NCBI RefSeq assembly: GCF_009914755.1
Contig: NC_060926.1
Source of the DNA: the human T2T-CHM13v2.0 reference genome, Homo sapiens
Length of the DNA: 64,000 nucleotides
Strand: one strand, 5' to 3'
Part shown: piece by piece, positions 24,749 to 44,340 of the stretch
How positions within the stretch are numbered: position 1 is the stretch's first letter
How the letters are laid out: each line of letters begins with the position of its first letter
Made by a program: the position numbers and the translations under genes
The notes under the pieces: generated by a model
The model's input: the letters and a program-made list of their open reading frames with translations, nothing else
What the model was told of the DNA's origin: nothing
Database searches by the model: none

Positions 24749-26690
24749 GGGCAGGCCGCCATCTTTCCCGTTCAGGCAACTTAGTCATTCCAGCCTGCGG
24801 GCTTTGGAGAGTACAAACCGACGAGGGACAGAAGAGATCCCACAGCACAGCATAGCTGCTTTACCAAATCATGGCCAGACTGCTTCTGTAAGCAGGCCCC
24901 TGATCCTGTTCCATCTCACTGGACAGGACCTCCCAACTGGGGCCTCCAGCTACCCCCACCAGCATTCCTTGGCCAATGGAAATGTGAAATGTTCCTGGGA
25001 CAGAGCTCCCGGAGAGGGGCAGGCCCCCACCTTTGGTCTTTCGGTGACTAGCCATTCTGGCCTGCGGGTTTTGGAGAGCCCAAGCTGACAAGGGGTGGAA
25101 GACGTGCCTCAGCACAGCACAGCCACGCTACAAAAACGTGGCCAGACTCTTGTTTACGTCAGTCCCTGACCACATTTCTAGTCAGCGGGTGAAGTCTTTC
25201 AACCAGGGTCTCTGGCTACCTTGACTGCTGTTCTCTGGCCGACAGAGGTCTCAGGCCTCCCTGAGTCAGAGCTCCCAGGGGGAGGACCAGATTGTCATCT
25301 TTGCTGTTTGGGCGACCCAGGCATTTCAGCCTTAGGGCTTCAGAGTGTCTGAGGCGGACCAGGGGCTGAAGTGAACCCCCAGCACAGCACAGCTGCTCTA
25401 TAAAAACGTGGCCAGACTTTTCTTTTTGAAGCAAGTCCCTGTTCTTGTTCGTCCTGACTAGGTAAGACTTCTCAACTTGCCTCCAGCCACATCTTACAGG
25501 TGTGTTCAGATTGGCAACAGGTTCGTACCTCAGTGGTACAGAGCTTCCAGAGGAAGGGGCAGACTATCATCTTCCCTGGAAAATACAAGGCAATTAGGGA
25601 CTGGAGGGGACCCCCAGCATACCACAGCAGCCCTACAGAAAAGTGGCCGGGCTCTCTACTTGATGGGCAGATCCTCCTGGCCTGGGTCTCTAGCCAGCCC
25701 ACCACTGGAGCTATCAAGCCAGTAGCAACTCTGCAGTTCCTGGGACAGAGCTTCCAGGAGCAAATGAAATCCTTTCTGCCACTGCCTCTGCAGTGGAACT
25801 GCCCTTGCTGCCCTCAGAAGATGCAAGGGAGCAAAGACCCTAAGTGCCCTATCAACACCTCCAATAAGCTGCAGTTGACCCAAAGAACAAGCCAGTCCAT
25901 CTCCCACGGGTACCACACACCCTCCACTACTCATCACCAGACAGGGAACCCTGGCTTGGGCCCACAGCACAGACCCTCCATCCTGGGCTGATTACACTAA
26001 GTGATTGCTAACTCACATGTCTCTGGGATGGAGCACCCAGGAAACAAGCAAAGTGGTGGAGCAGCAAGTCAGGTGATGTGGAGCCCAGAGGTCAGGGATG
26101 GCTGTCTCTCTAGGGTCCACTTGCCCTTGTGAGACACTTTATCCCAGCACTTTAGGAATGCTGAGGTCATACCAGCCACATCTTATATGCAAGATTGCCC
26201 AGCAGAGATCAGGTCCGAGAGTTCCCTTTTTAAAAAAAGGAGACTTGCTTAATAAAAGAAGTCTAGCCACGTTTGTGTAGAGCTGCTGTGCTGTGCTGGG
26301 GGTTCACTTTTGAGAGAGTTCTCCTCTGAGACCTGATCTCTGGAGGCTGGGCAATCTTGCACTTGAGATGGGGCTGGTCTGATCTCAGCACTCCTTAGTC
26401 TGCTCGCCTCTCCCATGGCCCCAGCCTGGCCACACCTGCTTACGGGGCACTCTTAGATGCCCACACCATAGCTTCCATGCTAGTGGACTGTACCGTATCA
26501 GTGGAGAGCTGCAGCAAGGTGGCCCCTAGAGCCACGCACCAGCCTGCACATTGCCTCTCCATACGGCAGCCCTTTATTTGGAAACTTCCTAAATCACTTT
26601 GCTGTGTGTGTTTACACGGGTGGGTTTTGCTTTACTTGCCCTGAGAGCACACGGGAGTGCAGCACACACCCCAACCCACATCAACTGCCA
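24749..26690 (+). mobile_element. Old primate L1 5'UTR with ~270-bp tandem monomers
   Basis: Monomers starting ~24751, 25019, 25285, 25558; the first three share cagcacagca(c/t)agc...tggccagact; directly followed by L1 ORF1. Confidence 0.6.
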
Positions 26691-27240
26691 TTAAAGAAAA
26701 GAAATTTCAGCCCAGAATTTCATGTCCAGCAAAATTAAGCATCATAAGTGAAGGAGAAATAAGATCCTTTTCAGACAAGCAAGTGCTGAGGGAATTTGGT
26801 ATCACCAGATCTACCTTACGAGAGCTCCTGAAGGAAGCACTAAATATGGAAAGAAAAGATCATCACCTGCTACTACAAAAACACACTGAAGTACACAGTC
26901 CAATGATGCTAAAAAGCAAGCACATATGTAAGTCTGCAAAATAACCAGCTGACAGCATGACGACAGGATAAAATCCACACATACCATTACTAACCTTAAA
27001 TGTAAATGGGCTAAATGCTCCCATTGAAAGACACGGGGCAAGCTGGGTAAAGAACCAAGACCCACTGGAGTATGCCGTCTTCAAGCAACCCATCTCACGT
27101 GCAGTGCCATACATAGGCTCAAAATAAAGGAATGGAGAAAAATATTTCAAGCAAATGGAAAACAGAAAAAAGGTGTTGCACTCCCAGTTTCTGACAAAAC
27201 AGACTCTACCAATAAAGATAAAAAAAGAGAAGGACATTAC
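26690..27240 (+). mobile_element. L1 ORF1 C-terminus and ORF2 endonuclease start
   Basis: KEKKFQPRISCPAKLSIISEGEIRSFSDKQ...LLKEALNMERK; then ttactaaccttaaatgtaaatgggctaaatgctccc (LTLNVNGLNAP). Confidence 0.9.
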
Positions 27241-27959: not shown

Positions 27960-29590
27960 AAACTTTTTTTTAATTTTTAAATTTTATTATTATACTTTAA
28001 GTTTTAGGGTACATGTGCACAATGTGCAGGTTTGTTACATATGTATACATGTGCCATGTTGGTGTGCTGCACCCATTAACTCGTCATTTAACATTAGGTA
28101 TATCTCCTAATGCTATCCCTCCCTGCTCCCCCACCCCACAACAGTTCTCGGTGTGTTATGTTACCCTTCTGTGTCCACGTGTTCTCATTGTTCAGTTCCC
28201 ACCTACGAGTGAGAACATGAGGTGTTTGGTTTTCTGTTCTTGTGTTAGTTTGCTGAGAATGATGATTTCCAGCTTCATCCATGTCCCTGCAAAGGACATG
28301 AACTCATCCTTTTTTATGGGTGCATAGCATTCCATAGTGTATATATGCCACATTATCCAGTCTATCATTGATTGGCGTTTGGGTTGCTTCCAAGTGTTTG
28401 CTGTTGTGAACTGTGCCGCAGTAAACATACGTGTGCATGTGTCTTTATATTAGAATGATTTATTATTTTTTCAGTATATACCCAGTAATGGGATTGCTGG
28501 GTTAAATGTATTTCTAGTTGTAGATCCTTGAGGAATTGTCACACTGTCTTCCACAATGGATGAACTAATTTATACTACCACCAAGAGTGTAAAAGCGTTC
28601 CTATTTCTCCACGTCCTCTCCAACATCTGTTGTTTCCTCATCTTTTAATGTTGGCTATTCTAAGTGGTGTGAGATTGTATCTCATTGTGGTTTTGATTTC
28701 CGTTTCTCTAATGACCAGTGATGATGTGGTTTGCTTCACATGTTCTTTAGCTGCATAAATGTCTTATTTGGGAAGTGTCTGTTCATATGTTTTGCCCATT
28801 TTTTGATGGGGTTGTTTTTTTTCTTATAAATTTGTTTAAGTTCTTTGTAGATTCTCCATATTAGCCGTTTGCCAGATGGATAGATTGCAAAAATTTTCTC
28901 CCATTCTGTGGGTTGCCTGTTCACTCTGATGATAGTTTCTTTTGCTCTGCAGACACTCTTTAGCTTAATTAGGTCCCATTTGTCAATTTTGGCTTTTGTT
29001 GCCATTGCTTTTGGTGTTGTAGTGATGAAGTCTCTGCCCATGCCTATGTCCTGAATGGTATTGCCTAACACAAGGACATTTCTGTGCCTGAGTGCCATAC
29101 CACCCAAAGTGATTTATAGATTCAGTGCTATCCCCATCAAGCTACCATTGACTTTCTTCACAAAATTAGAAAAACTACTTTAAATTTCATATGGAACCAA
29201 AAAAGAGTCTACATAGCCAAGACAATCCTAAGCAAAAAGAACAAAGCTGGAGGCATCACAGTACCTGGCTTCAAACTATTCTACAAGGCCACAGTAACGG
29301 AAACAGCATGGTACTGGTACCAAACCAGATATATAGACCAATGGAATAGAACAGAGGCCACAGAAATGGCACCACACATGTAAAACCACCACATCTTTGA
29401 CAAAACTGACAAAGGTAAGCACTGGGGAAAGGATTGCCTATTTAATAAATGGTGTTAGGAAAACTGTCTAGCCATATGCAGCAAACTGAAACTGGGCCAC
29501 TTCCTTACACTTTATACAAAAATTAACTTAAGAAGGATAAAAGAGTTAAACGTAAGACCTAAAAGCAAAAAATCTAGAAGAAAATGTAGG
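27960..29590 (-). mobile_element. L1PA element with 5' inversion (twin priming)
   Basis: Minus-strand 3' part 27960-29067 begins at consensus taggcaatacc; plus-strand part ~29093-29590 ends at the adjacent consensus ctagaagaaaa..tagg. Confidence 0.85.
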
Positions 29591-32500
29591 CCACCAACCT
29601 CAGGGGAAATGTACTTGTAGTGAAATGCATGGTACAAACACACATTCCCTACTTCCTTGAGTGGGTGAGGTTGGTGGCTGGTCCATCTGCTCCAAGTGGA
29701 CCCTTACAGATGTGGCTGGTTGCTCTTTGAGCCAGCTTGGCCTTGCCCGGCATGCACAAGCATCAGTGAATAACTGTGCTATAAATGGAGCCACATAGAG
29801 GAAATGAGCAGCAGGCTCAAGACCAGGGTGTGCACTGCCTTTGGGGCTCCAGTCCGTGCCTCAGGGATGGTATGGCACTGCGAGCTTCTTGGTTGCCAAG
29901 AGGCAGACCACAGGCCATCTTGAGGAGGACTTTATGTTCAAGTGCAGAAAACAGCCAGGATTACCACCCAGGGGACTTGGCCTTCTGTGGCCGTGGCCAG
30001 ACTTAGAATTTGTGTCAAGGCATGGCAAGCTCACTCGGAGCAGCGTGTTGGTACCTGGGGCCTGTGCATGCCAGACAAGGCCAGGCTGGCTCAAAGAGCA
30101 ACCAGCCACCTCTGCAAGGGTGCGCCTGGACCAGGTGGACTAGCCACCAACCTCACCCACAGAAGGAAGCAGGGGTGACCAGGTTACGAGAGCCTGAGTA
30201 GCTGCCACCTGAGGGCTGATGGAGCAGAGGCCCGAGGAAAATCAGATGGCACGTTTAACTGTTTAATGGATCTTAAGTTAATTTTTCTATAAAGCAGATG
30301 TCACCAGTCCATGCCTCAGAGCTCGTATGGCACTGCAGACCACAGAAGGCCGAGTCCCCTGGGTGGCAATCCTGGCTGCTTTCTGCACTTGAACATAAAG
30401 TCCTCCTCAAGACGGCCTGTGGTCTGCCTCTTGGCCCTACCTTTAGGGTAGAAGAACCAATGTACCATGTTCAGCAGCAAGTGAGGTTGGTGGCTGGTCC
30501 GGTTGCTCCTGGCACACCCTTGCAGAGGTGGCTGGTTGCTGTTTGAGCCAGCTTGGCCTTGCCCGGCATGCACAAGCCTCAGTGCAATTACTGTGCTACA
30601 AACGGAGCCACAGAGAGGGAATGAGCAGCAGGCTCAGCAGCAGGGTGTGCGCTGTCTCTGGGGCTCCAGTCCATGCCTCAGGGCTCGTATGGCATTGCAG
30701 GCTTCTTGGTTGCCAAGAGGCAGACCACAGGCCGTCTTGAGGAGGACTTTATGTTCAAGTGCAGAAAGCAGCCAGGATTACCATCCAGGGGACTTAGCCT
30801 TCTGTGACCCTGGCCAGACTCAGAATTTGTGCCAATGCAGGACAAGCTCACTCCGAGCAGCGTGTCAGTAGCTGGGGCCTATGCATGCCAGGCAAGGCCA
30901 AGCTGACTCAAAGAGCAACCAGCCACCTCTGCAAGGGTGTGCCAAGAGCAGGTGGACCAGCCAGCAACCTCAGCTACTCAAGGAACCTGGGATGGCCAGT
31001 TTCCTACAGCGTGAGTGGCTGCCTCCTGATGGCTGATGGAGCAGAGGCCTTAGGAAAAGCAGATGGCCCTGTGGCCCTACCTTTAGGGTAGAAGTACTGA
31101 TGTGCCATGTGTGGCAGCAAGTGAGGTTGGTGGCTGGTGCAGCGGCTCCTGGCACACCCTCGCAGAGGTGACTGGTTGCTCTTTGAGCCAGGTTGGCCTT
31201 GCCCGGCGTGAACAAGCCTCAGTGCAACCTCTCTGCTACATATGGAGCCACAGAGAGGAAACGAGCAGCAGGCTCAGGAGCAGGCTGTGCGCTGCCTTTG
31301 GGGCTCCAGTCCAAGCCTCGAGTCGTATAGCACTGCGGGCCTCTTGGTTGCCTAGAGGCAGAAAACAGGCCATCTTGAGGAGGACTTTATGTTCAAGTGC
31401 AGAAAGCAGCCAGGATTACCATCCAGGGGACTCGGCCTTCTGTGGCCCCGGCCAGACCTTGCAGAGGTGGCTGGTTGCTCTTTGAGCCAGCTTCACCTCC
31501 CTTGCATGCACAGGCCCCAGGTACTAACACGCTGCTCTGAATGAGCCTGTCCTGCCTTGGCTGCCACCTAATTGCTGATGGAGCAGAGGCCTTAGGAAAA
31601 GCAGATGGCACTGTGGCCCACCTTCAGGGTAGAAGAACTGATGTACCATGTCCGGCCACTAGTTGGTGACTGGTGCACCTGCTCCTGGCACACCCTTGCA
31701 GAGGTGGCTGGTTGCTGTTTGAGCCAGCTTGGCCTTGCCCGGCATGCACAAGTCTCAGTGCAATAACTGTGCTACAAATGGAGCCACAGAGAGGAAATGA
31801 GCGGCAGACTTAGGAGCAGGGTGTGTGCTGCCTTTGGGGCTCCAGTCCATGCCTCAGGGGTCGTATGACACTGTGGGCTTCTTGGTTACCAGGAGGCACA
31901 CAACAGGCCGTCTCGAGGAGGACTTCATGTTCAAGTGCAGAAAGCAGCCAGGATTACCATCCAGGGGACTCGGCCTTCTGTGGCCCTGGCCACACTCAGA
32001 ATTTGTGCCAAGGCAGGACAAGCTCACTTGGAGCAGTGTGTCAGTAGCTGGGCCTATGCATGCCAGGCAAGGCCAAGCTGGCTCAAAGAGCAACCAGCCA
32101 CCTCTGCAAGGGTGTGCCAGGAGCAGGTGGACCAGCCAGCAACCTCAGCTACTCAAGGAAGCTGGGATGGCCAGGTTCCAACAGCCTGAGTGGCTGCCTC
32201 CTGATGGCTGATGGAGCAGAGGCCTTAGGAAAAGCAGATGGCCCTGTGGCCCTACCTTTAGGGTAGAAGTACTGATGTGCCATGTCCGGTAGCAAGTGAG
32301 GTTGGTGGCTGGTGCACCGGCTCCTGGCGCACCCTTGCAGAAGTGACTGGTTGCTCTTTGAGTCAGCTTGGCCTTGCCCGGCATGCACAAGCCTCAGTGC
32401 AACAACAGTGCTACAAATGGAGCCATAGAGAGGAAACGAGCAGCAGGCTCAGGAGCAGGGTGTGCGCTGCCTTTGGAGCTCCAGTCCATGCCTCGCGTCG

Positions 32501-35500
32501 TATAGCACTGCGGGCTTCTTGCTTGCCTGGAGGCAGACCACAGGCCGTCTTGAGGAAGACTTTATGTTCAAGTACAGAAAGCAGCCAGGATTACCATCCA
32601 GGGGGGCCTTCTGTAGCCCTGGCCAGACCTTGCAGAGGTGGCTGGTTGCTCTTTGACTCAGCTTGGCCTCCCTGGCATGCACAGGCCCCAGGTACTAACA
32701 TGCTGCTCCGAGTGAGCTTGTCCTGCCTTGGCTGCCACCTAATTGCTGATGGAGCAGAAGCCTTAGGAAAAGCAGATGGCACTGTGGCCCACCTTTAGGG
32801 TAGAAGAACTGATGTACCATGTCCGGCCGCTAGTGGGTGAGTGGTGCACCTGCTCCTGGCACACCCTTGCAGAGGTGGCTGGTTGCTCTTTGAGCCAGCT
32901 TGGCCTTCCCTGGCATGCACAAGCCTCAGTGCAACAACTGTGCTACAAATGGAGCCACAGAGAGGAAACGAGCAGCAGGGTCAGGAGCAGGGTGTGCGCT
33001 GCCTTTGGGGCTCCAGTCCATGCCTCGGGTCGTATAGTACTGCGGGCTTCTTGCTTGCCTAGAGGCAGACCACAGGCCGTCTTGAGGAGGACTTTATGTT
33101 CAAGTGCAGAAAGCAGCCAGGATTACCACCCAGGGGACTTGGCCTTCTGTGGCCCTGTCCAGACTTAGAATTTGTGTCAAGGCAGGAGAAGCTCACTCGG
33201 AGCAGCGTGTTAGTACCTGGGGCCTGTGCATGCCAGGCAAGGCCAAGCTGGCTCAAAGAGCAACGAGGCACCTCTGCAAGGGTGCGCCTGGACCAATTGT
33301 ACCAGCCACCAACCTCACCCACTGAAGGAAGCAGGGATGGCCAGGTTACAACAGCCTGAGTGGCTGCCACCTGGGGGCTGATGGAGCAGAGGCCTGAGGA
33401 AACTCAGATGGCACATTTAACTCTTTAATGGATCTTAAGTTAATTTTTCTATAAAGCAGATGTCACCAGTCCATGCCTCAGGCTTGTATGGCACTGCGGA
33501 GCACAGAAGGGCGAGTCCCCTGGGTGGTAATCTTGGCTGCTTTCTGCACTTGAACATAAAGTCCTCCTCAAGACGGCCTGTGGTCTGCCTCTTGGCCCTA
33601 CCTTTAGGGTAGAAGAACCGATGTACCATGTCCGGCGGCGAGTGAGGTTGGTGGCTGGTCCGGCTGCTCCTGGCACACCCTTGCAGATGTGGCTGGTTGC
33701 TGTTTGAGCCAGCTTGGCCTTGCCCGGCATGCACAAGCCTCAGTGCAACTACTCTGCTACAAATGGAGCCACAGAGAGGGAATGAGCAGCGGGCTCAGCA
33801 GCAGGGTGTGTGCTGCCTTTGGGGCTCCAGTCCATGCCTCAGGGGTCATATGACACTGCAGGCTTCTTGGTTACCAGGAGGCACACAACAGGCCATCTCG
33901 AGGAGGACTTTATGTTCAAGTGCAGAAAGCAGCCAGGATTACCATCCAGGGGACTCGGCCTTCTGTGGCCCTGGCCAGACTCAGAATTTGTGCCAAGGCA
34001 GGACAAGCTCACTCGGAGCAGCGTGTCAGTAGCTGGGACCTATGCATGCCAGACAAGGCCAAGCTGGCTCAAAGAGCAACCAGCCACCTCTGCAAGGGTG
34101 TGCCAAGAGCAGGTGGACCAGCCAGCAACCTCAGCTACTCAAGGAAGCTGGGATGGCCAGTTTCTAACAGCATGAGTGGCTGCCTCCTGATGGCTGATGG
34201 AGCAGAGGCCTTAGGAAAAGCAGATGGCCCTGTGGCCCTACCTTTAGGGTAGAAGTACTGATGTGCCATGTGTGGCAGCAAGTGAGGTTGGTGGCTGGTG
34301 CAGCGGCTCCTGGCACACCCTCGCAGAGGTGACTGGTTGCTCTTTGAGCCAGGTTGGCCTTGCCCGGCGTGAACAAGCCTCAGTGCAACCTCTCTGCTAC
34401 ATATGGAGCCACAGAGAGGAAACGAGCAGCAGGCTCAGGAGCAGGCTGTGCGCTGCCTTTGGGGCTCCAGTCCAAGCCTCGAGTCGTATAGCACTGCGGG
34501 CCTCTTGGTTGCCTAGAGGCAGAAAACAGGCCATCTTGAGGAGGACTTTATGTTCAAGTGCAGAAAGCAGCCAGGATTACCATCCAGGGGACTCGGCCTT
34601 CTGTGGCCCCGGCCAGACCTTGCAGAGGTGGCTGGTTGCTCTTTGAGCCAGCTTCACCTCCCTTGCATGCACAGGCCCCAGGCACTAACACGCTGCTCTG
34701 AGTGAGCCTGTCCTGCCTTGGCTGCCACCTAATTGCTGATGGAGCAGAGGCCTTAGGAAAAGCAGATGGCACTGTGGCCTACCTTCAGGGTAGAAGAACT
34801 GATGTACCATGTCCGGCCACTAGTTGGTGACTGGTGCACCTGCTCCTGGCACACCCTTGCAGAGGTGGCTGGTTGCTGTTTGAGCCAGCTTGGCCTTGCC
34901 CGGCATGCACAAGTCTCAGTGCAACAACTGTGCTACAAATGGAGCCACAGAGAGGAAATGAGCGGCAGACTTAGGAGCAGGGTGTGTGCTGCCTTTGGGG
35001 CTCCAGTCCATGCCTCGGGTCGTATGGCACTGCAGGCTTCTTGGTTGCCAAGAGGCAGACCACAGGCCGTCTTGAGGAGGACTTCATGTTCAAGTGCAGA
35101 AGGCAGCCAGGATTACCATCCAAGGGACTCAGCCTTCTGTGGCCCTGGCCACACTCAGAATTTGTGCCAAGGCAGGACAAGCTCACTTGGAGCAGTGTGT
35201 CAGTAGCTGGGCCTATGCATGCCAGGCAAGGCCAAGCTGGCTCAAAGAGCAACCAGCCACCTCTGCAAGGGTGTGCCAGGAGCAGGTGGACCAGCCAGCA
35301 ACCTCAGCTACTCAAGGAAGCTGGGATGGCCAGGTTCCAACAGCCTGAGTGGCTGCCTCCTGATGGCTGATGGAGCAGAGGCCTTAGGAAAAGCAGATGG
35401 CCCTGTGGCCCTACCTTTAGGGTAGAAGTACTGATGTGCCATGTCCGGTAGCAAGTGAGGTTGGTGGCTGGTGCACCGGCTCCTGGCGCACCCTTGCAGA

Positions 35501-37726
35501 AGTGACTGGTTGCTCTTTGAGTCAGCTTGGCCTTGCCTGGCATGCACAAGCCTCAGTGCAACAACAGTGCTACAAATGGAGCCATAGAGAGGAAACGAGC
35601 AGCAAGCTCAGGAGCAGGGTGTGCGCTGCCTTTGGGGCTCCAGTCCCTGCCTTGAGTCGTATAGCACTGCGGGCTTCTTGCTTGCCTGGAGGCAGACTAC
35701 AGGCCGTCTTGAGGAAGACTTTATGTTCAAGTACAGAAAGCAGCCAGGATTACCATCCAGGGGGGCCTTCTGTAGCCCTGGCCAGACCTTGCAGAGGTGG
35801 CTGGTTGCTCTTTGAGTCAGTTTGGCCTCCCTGGCATGCACAGGCCCCAGGTACTAAGATGCTGCTCCGAGTGAGCTTGTCCTGCCTTGGCTGCCACCTA
35901 ATTGCTGATGGAGCAGAAGCCTTAGGAAAAGCAGATGGCACTGTGGCCCACCTTTAGGGTAGAAGAACTGATGTACCATGTCCGGCCGCTAGTGGGTGAG
36001 TGGTGCACCTGCTCCTGGCACACCCTTGCAGAGGTGGCTGGTTGCTCTTTGAGCCAGCTTGGCCTTCCCTGGCATGCACAAGCCTCAGTGCAACAACTGT
36101 GCTACAAACGGAGCCACAGAGAGGAAACGAGCAGCAGGGTCAGGAGCAGGGTGTGCGCTGCCTTTGGGGCTCCAGTCCATGCCTCGGGTCGTATAGTACT
36201 GCGGGCTTCTTGCTTGCCTAGAGGCAGACCACAGGCCGTCTTGAGGAGGACTTTATGTTCAAGTGCAGAAAGCAGCCAGGATAACCTTCCAGGGGACTTG
36301 GCCTTCTGTGACCCTGGCAGACTCAGAATTCGTGCCAATGCAGGACAAGCTCACTCGGAGCAGCGTGTTTGTACCTGGGGCCTATGCATGCCAGGCAGGT
36401 CCAAGCTGGCTCAAAGAGCAACCAGCCACCTCTGCAAAGGTGTGCCAGGAGCAGGTGGACCAGCCACCAACTTCAGCCACTGAAGGAAGCAGGGATGGCC
36501 AGGTTCCAAGAGCCTGAGTGGCTGTCTCCTGATGGCTGATGGATCAGAGGCCTTAGGAAAAGCAGATGGCCCTGTGGCCCTACCTTTAGGGTAGAAGTAC
36601 TGATGTGCCATGTCCGGTAGCAAGTGAGGTTGGTGGTTGGTGCAGCGGCTCCTGGCGCACCCTTGCAGAAGTGACTGGTTGCTCTTTGAGCCAGCTTGGC
36701 CTTGCCTGGCATGCACAAGCCTCAGTGCAACAACAGTGGTACAAATGGAGCCACAGAGAGGAAACGAGTGGCAGACTTAGGAGCAGGGTGTGCGCTGCCT
36801 TTGGGGCTCCAGTCTATGCCTCGGGTCCTATGGCACTGTGGGCTTCTTGGTTGCCAAGAGGCAGACCACAGGCTGTCTTGAGGAAGACTTTATGTTGAAG
36901 TGCAGAAAGCAGCCAGGATTACCACTCAGGGGACTCGGCCTTCTGTGGCCCTGGCCAGACTTAGAATTTGTGCCAAGGCAGGACAAGCTCACTTGGAGCA
37001 GCGTGTTAGTACCTGGGGCCTGTGCATGCCAGGCAAGGCCAAGCTGGCTGAAAGCAGAACCAGCCACCTCTACAAGGGTGCGCCTGGACCAGTTGGACCA
37101 GCCACCAGCTTCACCCACTGAAGGAAGCCGGGATGGCCAGGTTCCAACAGCCTGAGTGGCTGTCTCCTGATGGCTGATGGAGCAGAGGCCTTAGGAAAAG
37201 CAGATGGCCTTGTGGCCCTACCTTTAGGGTAGAAGTACTGATGTGCCATGTCTGGCAGCAAGTGAGGTTGGTGGCTGGTGCACCGGCTCCTGGCACACCC
37301 TTGCAGAGGTGACTGGTTGCTCTTTGAGCCAGCTTGGCCTTGCCTGGCATGCACAAGCCTCAGTGCAACAACAGTGCTACAAATGGAGCCACAGAGAGGA
37401 AACAAGCAGCAGGCTCAGGAGCAGGGTGTGCGCTGCCTTTGGGGCTTCAGTCCATGCCTCAGGCGTCATATGGCACTGCGGGCTTCTTAGTTGCCAAGAG
37501 GCAGACCACAGGCCGTCTTGAGGAGGACTTCATGTTCAAGTGCAGAAAGTAGCCAGGATTAGCATCTAGGGGACTCGGCCTTCTGTGGCCCTGGCCAGAC
37601 TTAGAATTTGTGTCAAGGCAGGACAAGCTCACTCGGAGCAGCATGTTGCTACCTGGGGCCTGTGCATGCCAGGCAAGGCCAAGCTGGCTCAAAGAGCAAC
37701 CAGTCACCTCTGCAAGGGTGCGCCTG
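29590..37726. repeat. Tandem array of ~638/535/817-bp foldback monomers with a ~3.16-kb higher-order repeat
   Basis: Core gagga(g/a)gactt(t/c)atgttcaagt(g/a)cagaa recurs 13 times on + (~29921 to ~37520) and twice inverted; ORFs 31102 and 34263 are identical at offset 3161. Confidence 0.95.
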
Positions 37727-40700
37727 TGGTCTGGATGGTGGTGGCTCCCTGTGTTAGTCCTCCAAGCCCATATTTTCCTTCTGCACTGGCCTCACAGAGG
37801 TTTCCGAAGAAGCTCTGCCTCTGCAGCATGCTTCTGCCTGGAAACAATGGGAGGTAGTTTTGCAGGGTGGAAGCCTTCACCAATGGTTAAACAGCATCTT
37901 CATGATGCTGACCTCGTGATAGTGAGTTCTCATGAGATCTGCTTGTATAACATGATGTGGCACTTCTTTCCTCTCTCTGTCTTGCTCCTTCTCCTGCTGT
38001 ATGAAACATCTCCTTGCCGCTTGGTCTTCTAGTATGATTGGGAGCACCTGAGTCCTCCCAGAAGCAGAAACCACTATGCTTCCTTTGCAGCCTGCAGAAC
38101 TGTGAGCCAATGAAACCTCTTTTCTTTTTGATCATACAGAAGGTTAGTACTGTGAAGTGAAGCTATGAAATTCCTTCAAGGCCTTTTCCCTATGAAATGC
38201 CTTCAAGGCCTTTTCCCCATTGTCTTGGCAAGCAGCACTCAGCTTCTTTTCATGCAAATATCTGAAGCCTATGTGATTTTTTTCCCTGAAAATGGACTTT
38301 TCTTCTTTTACCACATTGCCAGGCTGTGACACAGAGAGCTGATAATGTAGAAGCAGGTTCAGTAGTGGGTAAAAGACAGAGGTCGGGAGAGTTGGGAAAG
38401 CTTAAAAGACAGCAAGATGAGGAAAAGCTTGGACCACTGTAGAGAATTGTTAAATACTTGTGATCAGAAGGCTGACAGAAGGATGGACAGTGAAGGCCAG
38501 ACTTAAAAGTTCTCGGATGAAAACCAGGAATTTCCTGTGAATAGGAGCCAATACTACATTTGATTTGCCCAACAGAGGCTGCACAGTGACCTTGCCCTGG
38601 AGATCTGTGAAACTATGAACTTGGGGGTGATGATTTAGGATGTATCTTGTGGAATGAACATCTGAGCAGCATAGCTCAAGAGGTGTCCTGTCTGCGTCGA
38701 ACAGCCTGTGTTGTTATGTATGAGCTAAGAAATGACCTCAAATTGGAACTTCTACTTAAATGAGAAGCAGAGCTCAAAAGTTTGGAAAATTTGCAGCCTA
38801 GTCAAGTGGTCAAAAAGAAAAGCTGATTTTCAGGGGGAAAATTCAATACGGCTTAGAGTATTTGCATAAAAAGGAGCTTAGTGCAAGTATCCAAGACAAA
38901 GGGTAAAAGGCCTTGGAGGCATTTCAGAGACCTTTGCAGTAGCTCTTGCTCTCACAGGCCCTGGGGCCTAGCAGAGAAGAATGGCTTCCTGGGCCAGCTC
39001 CATGGCCCTGCTGCTGTGTGCATCCTCAGGACACTGCTGCCTGCATCCCTGCAGCCCCAGCTCCAGCCATGGCTGAATGATGCACAGGTACAGCTTGGGT
39101 CACTACTTCAGATGTGGCTCCAAGCCTTGATGGCTTCCACATAGTGTTAAGGCAGCAGGTGAAGAGAGCAAGAGACTAGAGGCTTTGGAGCCTCTTGTCT
39201 GGACTCCAGAGGATGTAGAGAAAAGCCTGGGTGTCCAGGCAGTAGCCTTTCCAAGAGGCTCATGGAAAACCTCTGCTAGGGCAGCAAAGAAGGGCCATGT
39301 AGGGTTGAAGCCCCCTCACAGGGAGGCTCCATTCTCCAAACCCCAGATTCATAGACCCACCAACATCTTGCACCCTCAGTGTGGAAAAGCTACAGGCATT
39401 CAAAACAGCCCTGTCCATGAGAGGCAGCTGTGGGTGCTGAACGCTGCGAAGCCACAGGTACAGATCTGCCCAAGGCCTTGGGAGCCCAGCCCTCACAGCC
39501 CTGTGCCATGGATGTGGGACGAGGATTCAAAAAGGATGATTTTGGAGCTGTCGGATTGAATGACTGGCCTGCTGGGTTTTGGATGTTCATGTATCCTGTG
39601 AGTCCCATCTGTGTTTTGTTTTTCTTTCTGGCATTTTTTTTCTACTGGCTGGGAATGCTTACCCATTGCCTGTACAATCATTGTGCCTTGGAATTAGTTA
39701 ACTTGCTTTATAATTCAGAAACTCAGGGGCAGATCGGACTGTAGCCTTGTCTCAGACGAGACTTTGGGCTTTGGACATTTGAGTAAATGCTGGAATTATT
39801 TAAGATTTGGGGGACTGTAGGGAAGGTATCATTGTATTCTGCAATGTAAGAAACAGGAGATTTGGGGGACCAGGGACAGAATAATATGATTTGGCTCTGT
39901 GTCCCTACCAAAGCTCATGTGGAATTGTAATGGGCAAAGTTAAAGGTGGGGACTGGTGGAAGGTGATTTAATCATGGTGGAGAGTGGAGTTTGGAAGGTG
40001 GGGGTGGTTGGGAGCATTGGGGGTGATTGTGTTGGGGTTGCAGGGAAAGGCAGAGGTGGGGGGCAGATTCTTCACAAATGGTTAAACACCATCTTTGTAA
40101 TGCTGTCCTTCTGATAGTGAGTTTGCTTCATGGTTTAGGAGCTTTGAGATTTGAATACTGGCCTGCTGGGTTTTGGATGTGCATTGGGCCTGTGGTCCCA
40201 TTTGTGTTATTTTTCTGGGAAATTTCTTCCCTTTGGAGTGAGAAAGCTTACCCAATGCCTGTACCATCATCGTACCTTAAAAGAACTCCATTTTAAGTTC
40301 AGGGACTCCTTGGCAGAAGAGACCGTAGCCTTGTATCAGATAAGACTTTGAACTTCTTACATTTGAGTTAATGCTGGAATGAGTTAAGGCTTTTGTAAAC
40401 ATTTGAAAAGGCATGACTGTATTTTACTCTGTGAGAATGACATGAGATTCGGGGGAGGGGGTCAAGGTCAGAATAATATGGTTTGGCTGTGTTTCCCTAG
40501 AAAAACTCATGTGGAATTGCAATCCCGAATGTTGGAGGTGGAGCCTGGTGGGAGGTGATTTAATCATGGATGGGAGGTGGGTGGGGTTGGAGGGAAAAAG
40601 AGGTGGGTAGCGTGGTGAGGAGTAAGCTCGCTGTAGGGTGGTGGGAGGGTGGGGGTAGTAGGAAGGAGGAGTAGCCTGCTGCAGAGGCAGAGGCTCGTAG

Positions 40701-43040
40701 AAAACCTCTGCTAGGACTGTGCACCTGTGGCTTTGCAGGGTGTAGCCCCCGTGGCTGCTCTCATGGGCTGGGCTGGTGTTGAGTGCCGGTAGCTTTTCCA
40801 TACTGAAGGTGCGAGCTGTTGATGGGTCTATGAATCTGGGCTCTGGAGGATGGTGACCTCCTGCATAGGGGCTCCAAGCCCAAATTTTTCTTCTGCACTG
40901 CCATAGTACAGGTTTTCCAAGAGGCTCAGGCTCTGCCTCAGGCTTCTGTCCGGAAACAGGAGGGGGTGGAGGTGGGTTGGGGACGGATCCTTCACTAATG
41001 ATTAAGCACCATCTTCTTGATGCTGACCTCGTGATAGTGAGTTCTCATGAACTTCCTCATAGTGTTAAGCCACTGGTTGGATGGAGCATGAGCCTAGGGG
41101 CTTGGGAGGCTCTGTATAGATTTTGGAGGATGTATGGAAATGTCTGGGTGTCTAGGCAAAAGCCTTCCTAAAAGGCAGAACCTCATAAGAAACCTCTACT
41201 AGGGCAGTGCAGAAGGAAAATATGGGGTTGGAGCCCCCACACTGGAGGCCACCATCATGAAGACCGCAGATTAATAGACCCCGCAACAGCTTGTACCGTC
41301 AGTGGGTAAAAGCTACAGGCGCTCAACACCAGCCCAGCCCATGAAGACAGCCGTGGGGTATAAACCCTGCAAAGCCACAGGTGCAGAGCTGCCCAAGGCC
41401 TTGGGAGCCCAGCCCTTACATCCCTGTGCCCTGGATGTGGGACAAGGTTTCAAAAAGGGTAATTTTGGAGCTGTAGGATTGAATGACTGGCCTTCTGGGT
41501 TTGGAGTTTCATGGGGCCTGTGAGTCCTTTCTGTGTTTTGTTCTTTCTGGCAAAATTATTCCTTTTGGCTGGGAATGCTTACCCATTGCCTGTATAAGCA
41601 TTGTACCTTGGAAGTAGTTAACTTTCTTTATATTTCAGAGGCTCATGAGCCTAAGGGTCTGCAGCCTTGTGTTAGATGAGACTTTAAGCTTTGAACATTT
41701 GTATAAATGATGAAATGATATAAGACTTTGGGGGACTGTAGGGAAGCTATCATTGTAGTTTGCAATGTGAGAAGGACATGAGATTTGGGGAGCCAGGGAG
41801 AGAATAATAAAATTTAGCTCTGTGTCCCTACCAAAATTCGTGTGGAATTGTAATGGGGAATGTTAAAGGTGGGGCCTGGTGGAAGGTGATTTAATCATGG
41901 TGGAGAGTGGGGGTTGGGAGGTGGGGGATAGGGAGAATGGGGAGATTATGTTGGGGGTGAGGGGTGAAAAGTGATGGTGGCTCCTTCACAAATGATTAGA
42001 CACAATCTCCTTATTTCTGTCCTTGTGATGGTGAGTTCTCTTCATGATTTTGGAGCAGTGAGATTGAATGGATACTGGTCTCCTGGGTTTTGGACTTGCA
42101 TTGGTCCTGTGGTCCCATCTGTGTTATTTTGCTGGGAAATTTCTTCCCGTTGGACTGAGAAAGCTTACCCAATGGGTGTACCATCATTGTGTCTTAAAAG
42201 AACACCCTTTTAAATTCAGGGACTTATAGGCAAAAGGGACTGTAGGCTTGTCTCAGATGAGACGTTGAACCTTTTACATTTGAGTTAATGCTGGAATGAG
42301 TTAAGACTTTTGGCAACTTTTGAAAAGGTGTGATTGTATTTTGCTCTGTGAGAAGGACATGAGATTCGGAGGGGTCAGGGTCAGAATAACATGGTTTGGC
42401 TGTGTTTCCCTACAGAAACTCATGTGAATTGTAATCTTGAATGTTGGAGATGGGGCCTGGTGGAAGGTGATTTAACCATGGATGGGAGGGGGTTGGAATT
42501 GGAAGGAAATAAAGTGGATAGTGTTGGGAGGAGTGGGTTGTCAGTAGGGTGGTGAGAGGATGGTGGGTATTAGGAAGCGGGAGTAGCCTGCTGCAGAGTC
42601 ACATCCTTATGGAAAACCTCTGCTAGGGCAGTGCTCCTGTGGCTTTGCAGGCTTTAGCCCCCATGGCTGCTCTCATGGGCTGGGCTGGTGTTGAGTGCTT
42701 TTGCATACTGAGGGTGCGGGCTGTTGGTGGGCTTATGAATCTGGGGTCTGGAGGATGGTGGCCTCCTGTGTGGGGGCTCCAAGCCCATATTTCCCTTCTG
42801 CACTGCCATAGTAGAAGTTTCCCAAGAGGCTCTGCCTCTGCAGGAGGCTTCTGCCTGGAAACAGTAGGCGGTGGTGTGTGTGGTGGATCCTTCACCAGTG
42901 GTTAATCTTCTTGATGCTGATCTGATAGTGAGTTCTCATGTGATCTGGTTGTATAATGGGCTGTGGCACCTCTTTTCTCTCTGTGTCTTGCTTCTATTTC
43001 TGCCATATGAAACATCTCATTGCCACTTGGCCTTCTGATG
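37727..43040. mobile_element. Rearranged MST (MaLR) LTR and internal fragments with a ~1.92-kb tandem duplication
   Basis: LTR starts of the type cagaataatatggtttggctgtgtttccc at ~39880, 40470, 41800, 42385; MaLR-internal gagactttgggctttggacatt; ~39125-41050 repeated at ~41050-42960. Confidence 0.8.
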
Positions 43041-44340
43041 TGGTTAGGAGGGGCCTGATCAGTGTGGGCCTGCTCAGTGGACCTAGTCAGTTGGGACTTG
43101 GTCAGTGAGGCCTGTTTAGTGGGAGCCTGGCCAGCAGGGGTCTGCTTAGGGAGGGTCTCATTAGGGGGATCCAGTAGTGGGGGTTTTGGCGAGTGGGGAC
43201 CTATTGGCAGCCAGTTGTTTGGTGTCTGGTCAGTGCAGACCTGGGCTGTGGGGCTTGACCAGTGGCGACCTGGTCAGCTGGGCTTAGTGGTGGCCTGGTC
43301 AGCATGGGCTGGGTCACTGGTGACCAGGTCAAGGGCTGCTATTCAGTGGAGGACTGGTCACATGGGACCTAGTCAGCAGGGCCTGGTGGGCTTGTCCTCA
43401 TCAGTGAGGCCCTTGTCAGTGGGGCCCTGATCAGGGCAGCCTGGTCAGTGGAACCTCATCAGTGGGGGCCTGGTCAGTGATGACTTGGTCAGTGGTGGCT
43501 TTTGTACCACTGGTCTACGGGGTGACCTGGTCAGCGGGGACCTGAGCAGTCGGTGCCTGTTCAGTGGGGCCTACTCACTAGGGTCCCAGTCAGGGGCATC
43601 TGCTCACCTCAGGCCTGGTTAGTAGGGGCCTGATCAGTGGCAGCCTGTTCCCTGGAGGCCTGGTCAGTGGGGCCTCATCTGTGGGGCCAGGTAGTGGGGT
43701 CATGATCAGTGGAATCTGATCAGTGATGCCTTGTCAGTAATGACCTTGTCAGTGAGGCCTTGTCAGTGGGGCCTTGTCAGTAAGGACCTGGTCAGTGAGG
43801 CCTTGTCAATAAGGTCCTGATCAGTGAGGTCTCAGTTAGGACCTGGTCCATGAGGCCTTGTCAGTGAGGCCTTGTCAGTAAGGACCTGGTCAGTGAGGCC
43901 TTGTCAATAAGGTCCTGGTCAGTGAGGACTTGTCAGTAAGGACCTGGTCCGTGAGGCCTTGTCAATAAGGTCCTGGTCAGTGAGGACTTGTCAGTAAGGA
44001 GCTCATCCATGAGGCCTTGTCAATAAGGTCCTGGTCAGTGAGGCCTTGTTAGTAAGGACTTTGTCAGTGAGGCCTTGTCAGTGAGGCCTGGTCAGTAAGG
44101 ACCTGGTCAGTGAGGCCTTGTCAGGGAGGCCTGGTCAGTAAGGTCCTGTTCAGTGAGGCCTTGTCCATGAGGCCTTGTCAGTAAGGTCCTGGTCAGTGGA
44201 GTCATGGTCATTGTTGGCCTGGAAGCAGGGGTCTTGTTAGTGGGTCCTGGTGATGGGGATCTAATCAGTGAGGGTGTGGTCAGGGAAGACCTGATGTGTG
44301 GGGTCTGGTCAGCAGGAACCTGGTCAGTGGGGACTGCTGA
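43040..44340. repeat. GC-rich 14/15-bp minisatellite (gaggccttgtcagt / aaggacctggtcagt), homogeneous core 43720-44200
   Basis: Dozens of ggtcagtg / cttgtcagt units visible directly. Confidence 0.9.

What the first reader, a model, noticed from the sequence alone, without database searches (positions are those of the whole stretch)
29590..37726. 8-kb satellite built from foldback monomers (100-bp inverted arms) downstream of POTE-actin
Seen: the standard monomer is ~638 bp, made of a left arm (e.g. 36624-36725, gtgaggttggtgg...ttggccttgcctggcatgcacaagcctcag), a ~287-bp core, a right arm that is its reverse complement (37013-37114, ctggggcctgtgcatgccaggcaaggccaag...ccagcttcac) and a ~147-bp spacer. 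Arms alternate orientation along the array, so any arm can pair with many partners. I do not recognise it as Alu, L1, LTR or a classical satellite. Inference: a transcript from either strand, such as POTE read-through starting ~5 kb upstream, would form a chain of ~100-bp duplexes. That makes it a candidate source of ADAR substrates, endo-siRNA/piRNA or immunostimulatory dsRNA co-activated with a cancer-testis locus, and a possible hairpin-prone DNA hotspot.
Basis: partly seen in the sequence, partly recalled or inferred. Interest (0 to 1): 0.8.

Follow-up and report, generated by a model that had tools for sequence, protein, structure and literature searches.

The report
Foldback tandem repeat downstream of POTE genes
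This is a real 8-kb tandem repeat whose roughly 640-base units each carry a pair of 100-base inverted arms; it travels with almost every POTE gene copy and looks like an unstable by-product of pericentromeric duplication, not a selected source of double-stranded RNA.

Summary
Window 29646-37726 is a tandem array of 13 units. Nine are 632-817 bp with inverted arms, and four are about 540-bp rearranged units. The array carries 26 copies of a 102-bp arm (17 forward, 9 reverse) and a 3,163-bp higher-order repeat at 95.5% identity. No arm copy lies elsewhere in the window.

The family is genome-wide: at least 604 monomer matches and 399 arm matches, against 0 for a reversed control. All listed copies lie in pericentromeric or acrocentric duplications. 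An array lies 8-12 kb downstream of 12 of 13 POTE-like loci; chr8 is the exception.

The unit also exists as a single 640-bp copy in older paralogous segments. There the arms are 90-94% complementary, against 77-89% in the arrays. All arrays examined share one left junction with an L1 fragment.

RNA and DNA folds are very stable (z about -12), but the stem shows no covariation. CpG is depleted (observed/expected 0.21).

A REP522 proxy, the palindrome around mir-5701, shares no similarity with the array. SATR1/SATR2 identity could not be tested. Transcription, editing and small RNAs could not be tested.

Verdict: an ordinary but neat duplicon-associated satellite. The dsRNA role is unsupported.

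The parts
29646..37726 (+). Whole tandem array: 13 units. Both ends fall inside an arm.
36624..36725 (+). Reference forward arm (A+), 102 bp
   Evidence: 26 arm hits in the window, all inside the array
36726..37012 (+). Reference core, 287 bp. Always forward except for short inverted fragments.
37013..37114 (-). Reference reverse arm (A-), 84.5% complementary to 36624-36725
37115..37261 (+). Reference spacer, 147 bp. Position 94 is a recurrent breakpoint.
29670..33412 (+). Higher-order repeat, first copy. It matches 32833-36570 at 95.5%; period 3,163 bp.
32833..36570 (+). Higher-order repeat, second copy
29665..30480 (+). 817-bp variant unit; the second one is at 32833-33641. The spacer is interrupted at position 94 by an inverted piece of the left flank (29510-29553) and an inverted core fragment (core 128-223).
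31121..31661 (+). About 540-bp variant unit; others are at 32296-32832, 34282-34822 and 35455-35991. The end of the core plus most of the reverse arm is inverted in place, with small deletions on both sides.
27982..29645 (+). Left flank holding L1 fragments. It is shared at 86-88% identity by the arrays on chr21 and chr4, so the left junction is common to them.
37812..43051 (+). Right flank, paralogous to the sequence that lies 2.75 kb or more to the right of the single-copy unit on chr9, chr18 and chr2q11
30751..31752 (.). Two RefSeq 'enhancer' features inside the array, taken from the annotation supplied with the finding. Not tested here.
   Evidence: Hub annotation in the task

Best explanation
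The array is a duplicon-associated satellite with no selected function of its own.

A 640-bp stretch of ordinary pericentromeric duplicated DNA already contained a roughly 100-bp inverted repeat around a 147-bp spacer. This stretch still exists as a single copy in older paralogous segments.

At one locus it came to lie next to an L1 fragment and was amplified head to tail. The resulting array was then copied along with the POTE duplicon to 12 of the 13 POTE-like loci, and to further pericentromeric and acrocentric sites.

The array kept changing afterwards:
- units were gained and lost;
- a 3.16-kb block was duplicated in the chr2 lineage;
- pieces were inverted at the arms;
- the arrays ended at different right-hand breakpoints.

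Shown here: the anatomy, the single-copy precursor state, the shared left junction, the linkage to POTE, the folding potential and the lack of covariation.

Inferred: that the inverted arms promote the breaks, inversions and copy-number change through hairpin or cruciform formation and template switching; and that any RNA made from the array would be an incidental double-stranded by-product.
For: - A single permuted 640-bp unit (core 183-287, A-, spacer, A+, core 1-184) is present at 5 of 5 dispersed loci examined. These loci are 85-98% identical to one another over 10 kb.
- The left flank of the single unit has 36 strong paralogs among 43 matches. The right flank has 40 near-full-length matches (query 1/4-1115) among 85.
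- The L1-type left junction is shared by the window, chr21 and chr4 arrays.
- Right junctions differ. The window array ends inside an A- arm. The chr21 and chr14 arrays end at spacer position 94 followed by an L1 piece. The chr4 array keeps the ancestral right flank.
- Unit counts are 13 (window), 6 (chr21), at least 15 (chr14) and 4-5 (chr4).
- POTE penultimate-exon matches of 83% or more occur at 13 loci. An array lies downstream on the same strand at 12 of them.
- A 401-bp POTE exon/intron piece matches at 100% (as rounded by the tool; the bit scores differ slightly) at the four chr2 POTE loci. The arrays align at only 92-98% and differ in length by 0.6-1.2 kb.
- There is no covariation in the arm stem, and complementarity has decayed in the arrays.
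- CpG observed/expected is 0.21 at 57% GC.
- There are no Pfam or Rfam family matches in the array.
Against: - Arms are somewhat better conserved between paralog groups than the spacer (0.84-0.93 against 0.80-0.86). This could reflect constraint, or gene conversion between arms.
- RefSeq lists two enhancer features inside the array (hub annotation), which hints at some regulatory activity in an assay.
- The role of the arms in breakage rests on a handful of junctions, not on a statistical test.
- No other primate genome could be searched, so the order of events is inferred from human paralogs alone.
Confidence: 0.6

Rival explanations
1. The array is a functional source of long double-stranded RNA. 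POTE read-through or antisense transcription in testis or cancer would yield chains of 100-bp hairpins, which would act as ADAR substrates, endo-siRNA or piRNA precursors, or MDA5 ligands.
For: - Folds are very stable in both pairing registers, with z from -12 to -13.3.
- An array lies on the same strand 8-12 kb downstream of 12 of 13 POTE-like loci.
- Arms are slightly better conserved than the spacer.
Against: - No transcript over the array appears in the supplied annotation.
- The stem has 2 compensatory cells against 34 broken or gapped cells.
- Array arms are 77-89% complementary, against 90-94% in single-copy units.
- The same arrays also lie at sites where no POTE exon match was found.
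- Strong CpG depletion points to germline methylation and silence.
- Expression was not testable here.
Confidence: 0.12
2. This rival concerns naming, not mechanism. The family may already be catalogued in Repbase/Dfam and merely unrecognised here. The most likely names are SATR1/SATR2, the 'satellite-associated repeats' that form mixed arrays and mark duplicon boundaries. Another possibility is a model added by the T2T repeat annotation.
For: - SATR1 and SATR2 are described as mixed arrays with inverted segments at the boundaries of segmental duplications (passages of PMC5088589, PMC2700803 and bioRxiv 10.1101/2025.08.04.668424).
- The search listing shows SATR terms in papers on acrocentric short arms and on the nucleolus. 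This fits the distribution found here.
- The two alternating unit sizes here (about 638 and about 540 bp) could correspond to two library entries.
Against: - Published SATR sites are the Xiao/DA elements with HERV-E and OR7E at 8p23.1 and related loci.
- None of the 150 listed monomer matches, and none of the roughly 100 listed arm matches, lies on chr3, 7, 8, 11 or 12.
- None of 34 flank and array reading frames has a retroviral domain.
- No open paper contains SATR1 or SATR2 together with POTE, ANKRD20A or chAB4.
- Weaker matches were not listed, so this evidence is not decisive.
Confidence: 0.4
3. The array is a cis-regulatory element, an enhancer cluster or a chromatin boundary, for POTE or for the neighbouring transcribed pseudogene CYP4F30P.
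For: - RefSeq lists enhancer features at 30751-31252 and 31253-31752 (hub annotation).
- Each arm carries a GCAAGGCCA-like motif. By recall this resembles nuclear-receptor half-sites; it was not tested.
Against: - Unit number varies freely between paralogs, from 4 to at least 15.
- CpG is depleted.
- Repetitive GC-rich DNA often scores in plasmid enhancer screens (general knowledge).
- No motif test was done.
Confidence: 0.08

Closest known systems
REP522 (human 'largely palindromic' interspersed repeat of about 1.8 kb, activated in cancers)
   Same: - GC-rich.
- Built around inverted symmetry.
- Lies in pericentromeric and acrocentric duplicated DNA.
- Sits near cancer-testis genes; REP522 is reported at the BAGE locus (PMC3560060 passage).
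   Different: - The REP522 proxy is the roughly 2.2-kb palindrome centred on the mir-5701 hairpin. Its arms are made of about 45-bp subrepeats.
- It has no BLAST similarity to the array: 0 of 7 hits of each of the two proxy loci fall in 29665-37726.
- Its 156 genome matches do not coincide with the array loci.
- REP522 is interspersed, while this family is tandem.
- Only 32% of the monomer here lies in inverted arms.
SATR1/SATR2 satellite-associated repeats of the Xiao/DA core duplicons
   Same: - Satellite-like arrays of two intermixed unit types.
- Contain inverted pieces.
- Lie at the edges of segmental duplications and at their breakpoints.
   Different: - The published context is HERV-E plus OR7E at 8p23.1, 4p16 and similar sites, which is not seen here.
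- Sequence identity could not be tested.
Satellites built from foldback or inverted-pair units in other animals
   Same: Tandem monomers that carry dyad symmetry. Examples: Tribolium madens macro-dyad satellites and the cichlid centromeric satellite with a pair of inverted elements, both seen only as titles and abstract starts in the listing; and the Drosophila virilis Tetris-derived satellite, cited from recall.
   Different: - Those are megabase-scale or centromeric.
- In the Tetris case (from recall) the satellite derives from a transposon.
- This family comes in 2-10 kb arrays and derives from a single-copy stretch of duplicated DNA. It shows no sign of a dispersed transposon family: only 82 candidate regions genome-wide.
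Inverted-repeat Alu pairs as ADAR1/MDA5 substrates (recalled, not read here)
   Same: Transcribed inverted repeats that would give long imperfect duplexes.
   Different: - Alu pairs lie inside known transcripts, and their editing is documented.
- No transcript is known over this array.

Membership tests
Satellite / tandem repeat with higher-order structure (generic) | Head-to-tail copies of a monomer | tested here: met
   13 units at spacings of 532-817 bp
Satellite / tandem repeat with higher-order structure (generic) | A higher-order block more similar than neighbouring monomers | tested here: met
   The 3,163-bp block is 95.5% identical, against 87-92% between monomers
Satellite / tandem repeat with higher-order structure (generic) | The same monomer in arrays at several loci | tested here: met
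   At least 604 matches on 12 chromosomes. Arrays were read on chr21, chr14 and chr4.
REP522 | Sequence similarity to a REP522 copy | tested here: not met
   The proxy is the mir-5701 locus. It is called a Rep522 repeat in bioRxiv 10.1101/2021.12.09.471935 (passage) and was located with the miRNA sequence from PMC5484037 Table 2. It has no hit in the array. No Dfam model was available, so this test is by proxy only.
REP522 | A unit of about 1.8 kb that is largely palindromic (PMC4896275 passage) | tested here: not met
   The unit is 638 bp, with 204 bp (32%) in inverted arms
REP522 | Interspersed rather than tandem | tested here: not met
   This family is tandem
SATR1/SATR2 | Match to the library consensus | not testable with these tools
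   No Dfam or Repbase library was available, and no SATR sequence appeared in any text read
SATR1/SATR2 | SATR-HERVE-SATR / OR7E (Xiao) context (PMC2700803, PMC5088589 passages) | tested here: not met
   0 of 34 reading frames carry retroviral domains. No listed match lies on chr8p, chr4p16, chr11, chr3, chr7 or chr12. Context is not a strict requirement for membership.
Foldback / MITE-type transposon | Many dispersed copies with terminal inverted repeats at the element ends | tested here: not met
   All copies lie in paralogous duplicated segments, with 82 candidate regions in total. In the single-copy unit the arms are internal, not terminal.
Structured RNA gene | Compensatory changes that keep the stem | tested here: not met
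   The covariation term is -0.57 kcal/mol, with 2 compensatory cells out of 1,113. No Rfam match came near its gathering score.

The most novel reading that the evidence does not exclude
The array could be a conserved 3' module of the POTE duplicon that does two things at once. First, its 100-bp arms would make the locus break and re-copy, which would help explain how POTE spread to 12 sites. Second, when POTE chromatin opens in testis or cancer, the arms would yield long hairpin RNA that feeds ADAR, MDA5 or small-RNA pathways. If so, a cancer-testis gene family would carry its own dsRNA alarm. Nothing found here excludes transcription. The folding potential and the strand-matched linkage to POTE are both real.
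Probability: 0.1. Interest if true: 0.6.

Novelty: new member of a known kind. Interest (0 to 1): 0.3.

Why it matters
If the reading is right, this is a clear worked example of how a satellite is born inside segmental duplications. All three states survive in one genome: the single-copy precursor, the short arrays and the long rearranged arrays. The inverted arms mark the places where things broke.

It also gives a practical marker for POTE paralogs, and it flags about 0.2-0.4 Mb of DNA that will confuse read mapping.

The dsRNA idea would matter for tumour immunology, but nothing found here supports it yet.

The family may already carry a library name. I put that at about 40% for SATR1/SATR2 and higher for any name at all. 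In that case only the anatomy and the history are new.

Tried and rejected
- **REP522 identity: rejected by proxy**. The miR-5701 seed 8-mer is absent from the array. The mir-5701 palindrome shares no similarity with the array.
- **Rfam:** 5 matches at E up to 1, all far below their gathering scores.
- **Pfam** on 34 reading frames: only one L1 ORF1 fragment at 26645-26941.
- **tblastn** of the part of POTEJ encoded in the window against six precursor or short-array loci: no hit at E up to 0.01. I therefore could not show that the single unit lies inside an ANKRD-type gene.
- **Tandem Repeats Finder** found nothing because its longest period is 500.
- **Literature:**
  - The search on 'POTE, satellite, inverted repeat, pericentromeric' by word start was useless, because 'pote' matches 'potential'.
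  - The whole-word search 'POTE' + 'inverted repeats' + 'satellite' gave one general review.
  - No paper joins SATR1/SATR2 with POTE, ANKRD20A or chAB4.
- **Not available:**
  - The T2T repeat paper and the Kaczkowski 2016 paper were not held under the ids I tried.
Three stretches were fetched instead.
Full report
**1. The observation**

The window is T2T-CHM13 chr2:131,068,001-131,132,000. They gave 26 arm hits, 19 core hits and 14 spacer hits, all between 29665 and 37726.

Other measures agree:
- The repeat finder reported 53 inverted pairs with arms of 95-120 nt at 83-96% complementarity.
- It reported 13 direct copies at spacings of 532-817 bp.
- GC rises to 0.55-0.59 inside the array, from 0.32-0.44 outside.
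- Tandem Repeats Finder saw nothing, because its longest period is 500.

A self-comparison showed a higher-order repeat. Region 29670-33412 matches 32833-36570 at 95.5% over 3,744 bp. Weaker periods occur at 1,182 and about 631 bp.

The array begins at about 29646 inside an arm and ends at 37726 inside a reverse arm.

**2. Anatomy of the units**

A map of arms, cores and spacers shows 13 units of three kinds.
- **Standard unit (632-640 bp):** forward arm, core, reverse arm, spacer.
- **Rearranged unit (about 540 bp), four copies** at 31121, 32296, 34282 and 35455. The last 40 bp of the core plus most of the reverse arm are inverted in place, with small deletions on both sides. The unit therefore carries a second, partial forward arm.
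- **Long unit (about 815 bp), two copies** at 29665 and 32833. The spacer is interrupted at position 94 by an inverted copy of 44 bp of the array's own left flank (29510-29553) and an inverted core fragment.

In total there are 17 forward arms (4 partial) and 9 reverse arms (1 partial). The arms therefore alternate in 9 of the 13 units, not throughout.

**3. Distribution in the genome**

- The monomer has at least 604 matches in the window's own genome. This is a lower bound, since 32 of 82 candidate regions were scored. The 150 listed matches lie on chromosomes 1, 2, 4, 9, 13, 14, 15, 18, 20, 21, 22 and Y, all at pericentromeric or acrocentric short-arm positions.
- A 41-nt arm stretch with up to 3 mismatches occurs 399 times (214 forward, 185 reverse). 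The same pattern read backwards occurs 0 times.
- A 401-bp piece around the penultimate POTEJ exon has 39 matches. Thirteen loci match at 83% or more: chr2 five times, chr14 twice, chr15 twice, and chr8, chr18, chr21 and chr22 once each.
- At 12 of those 13 loci an array lies on the same strand about 8-12 kb downstream. The exception is chr8, where the nearest unit is a single copy 152 kb away.

The array is not POTE-specific, however. Arrays of about 2-3.5 kb lie at some 24 further places where no POTE exon match was found.

**4. Origin of the unit**

At five dispersed loci (chr9 at 33.59, 38.59 and 109.32 Mb, chr18 at 14.41 Mb, chr2 at 95.29 Mb) there is exactly one unit.

- These loci are 85-98% identical to each other over the whole 10 kb fetched.
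- Their left flank has 36 strong paralogs among 43 matches.
- The 1.1-kb stretch to their right has 40 near-full-length matches (query 1/4-1115) among 85.
- The window shares only the more distant right flank. Window 37812-43051 corresponds to sequence 2.75 kb or more to the right of the single unit.

By recall, not by any search, the single-unit positions coincide with members of the ANKRD18/ANKRD20A gene family and with the chAB4 long-range repeat family. A tblastn with the window's part of POTEJ found no related exon in these 10-kb pieces.

**5. Junctions**

- **Left junction.** The window's left flank (27982-29699, holding L1 fragments) is shared at 86-88% identity by the chr21 array and by the chr4 short array. 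The left junction therefore formed once.
- **Right junctions differ.** The window array stops inside a reverse arm. The chr21 and chr14 arrays both stop at spacer position 94 and continue into an L1-like piece; their right flanks are 88.7% identical to each other. The chr4 array continues into the ancestral right flank.
- **Spacer position 94 recurs.** It is also where the long variant unit is interrupted, so it is a repeated breakpoint.
- **Unit counts.** The counts are 13 (window), 6 (chr21), at least 15 (chr14, cut by the fetch) and 4-5 (chr4).
- **Recent change.** A 401-bp exon/intron piece matches at 100% (as rounded by the tool) at the four chr2 POTE loci. Yet their arrays align at 96-98% at the ends and only 92-94% in the middle, and they differ in length by 0.6-1.2 kb. 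The arrays have kept changing since the last POTE duplications.

**6. Folding and selection**

Stability of the folds:

| Stretch | Molecule | MFE (kcal/mol) | z |
|---|---|---|---|
| 36624-37114 (arm, core, arm) | RNA | -283 | -13.3 |
| 37013-37363 (arm, spacer, arm) | RNA | -232 | -12.0 |
| 37013-37363 | DNA | -121 | -11.4 |

None of 100 shuffles folded as well in any of the three.

I aligned 21 arm-spacer-arm segments drawn from the chr2, chr21, chr14 and chr4 arrays and from four single-copy loci. RNAalifold gave a covariation term of only -0.57 kcal/mol. In the 53-pair arm stem, 2 cells show a compensatory change and 34 are broken or gapped, out of 1,113. The outer third of the arms is not in the consensus structure at all.

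Arm complementarity is 90-94% in 4 of 4 single-copy units and 77-89% in 17 of 17 array units. Pairing was therefore inherited from the precursor and is decaying, not maintained.

Arms are a little better conserved between groups than the spacer (0.84-0.93 against 0.80-0.86). That fits either weak constraint or gene conversion between arms.

CpG observed/expected is 0.21 at 57% GC. This is the signature of DNA methylated in the germ line.

**7. What it is called**

*REP522.* It is described as about 1.8 kb, largely palindromic, interspersed, and enriched at cancer-activated promoters (PMC4896275 passage). It forms a large block at the BAGE locus (PMC3560060 passage), and hsa-miR-5701 is said to overlap it (bioRxiv 10.1101/2021.12.09.471935 passage).
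- I took the miR-5701 sequence from Table 2 of PMC5484037 and found two exact copies on chr15.
- The miRNA hairpin there is the centre of a roughly 2.2-kb palindrome whose arms are made of about 45-bp subrepeats. This fits the published description of REP522.
- That locus has no BLAST similarity to the array.
- Its family of 156 matches does not coincide with the array loci.

REP522 is therefore rejected, with the caveat that the test used a proxy and not the library model.

*SATR1/SATR2.* These are satellite-associated repeats that flank HERV-E in the Xiao/DA core duplicons and mark duplication breakpoints (passages of PMC2700803 and PMC5088589). In macaque they form mixed arrays with inverted pieces (bioRxiv 10.1101/2025.08.04.668424 passages).
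- No SATR sequence was available, so membership could not be tested.
- The context does not match. None of 34 reading frames has a retroviral domain, and no listed match lies at the published SATR loci.
- Weak matches were not listed, however, and SATR is also reported from acrocentric arms (listing only).
- I put the chance that RepeatMasker already calls this array SATR1/SATR2 at about 40%.

*In print.* Two searches found no open text linking POTE to such a repeat. The supplements of the papers read could not be opened.

**8. Mechanism and verdict**

The best-supported reading is a neutral, unstable satellite. It was born from a single-copy stretch that already contained an inverted repeat, was amplified next to an L1 fragment, and was then carried along with the POTE duplicon.

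The arms are the likely cause of the inversions, the fold-back insertion of flank sequence and the varied array ends. That step is inferred from where the junctions lie, not proven.

It has no support from conservation and none from the supplied annotation, and it could not be tested with expression data here.

The two RefSeq enhancer features inside the array (hub annotation) are noted but were not evaluated.

Noticed in passing
L021 1-3019 (chr15:18,855,324-18,858,342) and its inverted twin L022: The hsa-miR-5701 hairpin (arms at 1472-1521 and 1544-1593) sits exactly at the centre of a roughly 2.2-kb palindrome. The left arm is C-rich and the right arm is G-rich, and both are built of about 45-bp subrepeats. 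The miRNA may be no more than the tip of a REP522-type palindrome.
   Followed up: partly
window 39254-43050: The right flank of the array is itself a direct repeat of about 1.92 kb (2 to 2.5 copies, 75-89% identity). It has internal inverted arms of up to 241 nt (40717-40957 against 41148-41388).
   Followed up: no
window 43692-44220: A minisatellite with a 14-15 / 29-bp period (17 overlapping copies reported) lies between the array region and CYP4F30P.
   Followed up: no
window 37115-37261 (spacer position 94) and its counterparts in L033, L034 and L035: The same spacer position is the insertion point of the long variant unit. It is also the end point of the chr21 and chr14 arrays. It is therefore a recurrent breakpoint outside the arms.
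   Followed up: partly
chr9 33.59, 38.59, 40.3, 42.99, 44.47, 77.85, 79.71, 105.06 and 109.32 Mb; chr18 14.41; chr2 95.29; chr3 95.66; chr8 43.79: The loci with a single unit, or their flanks, fall where I recall the ANKRD18A/B and ANKRD20A gene copies and the chAB4 long-range repeat family to lie. If that is right, the foldback unit is an old component of the wider ANKRD26-like duplicon family to which POTE belongs.
   Followed up: no
window 26645-26941: An L1 ORF1 dsRBD-like fragment (Pfam PF17490, E 1.8e-21) lies between the end of POTEJ and the array. The array's left junction abuts L1-derived sequence.
   Followed up: partly
window 38163-38217: Two tandem copies of a 27-bp unit, 96% matching.
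   Followed up: no
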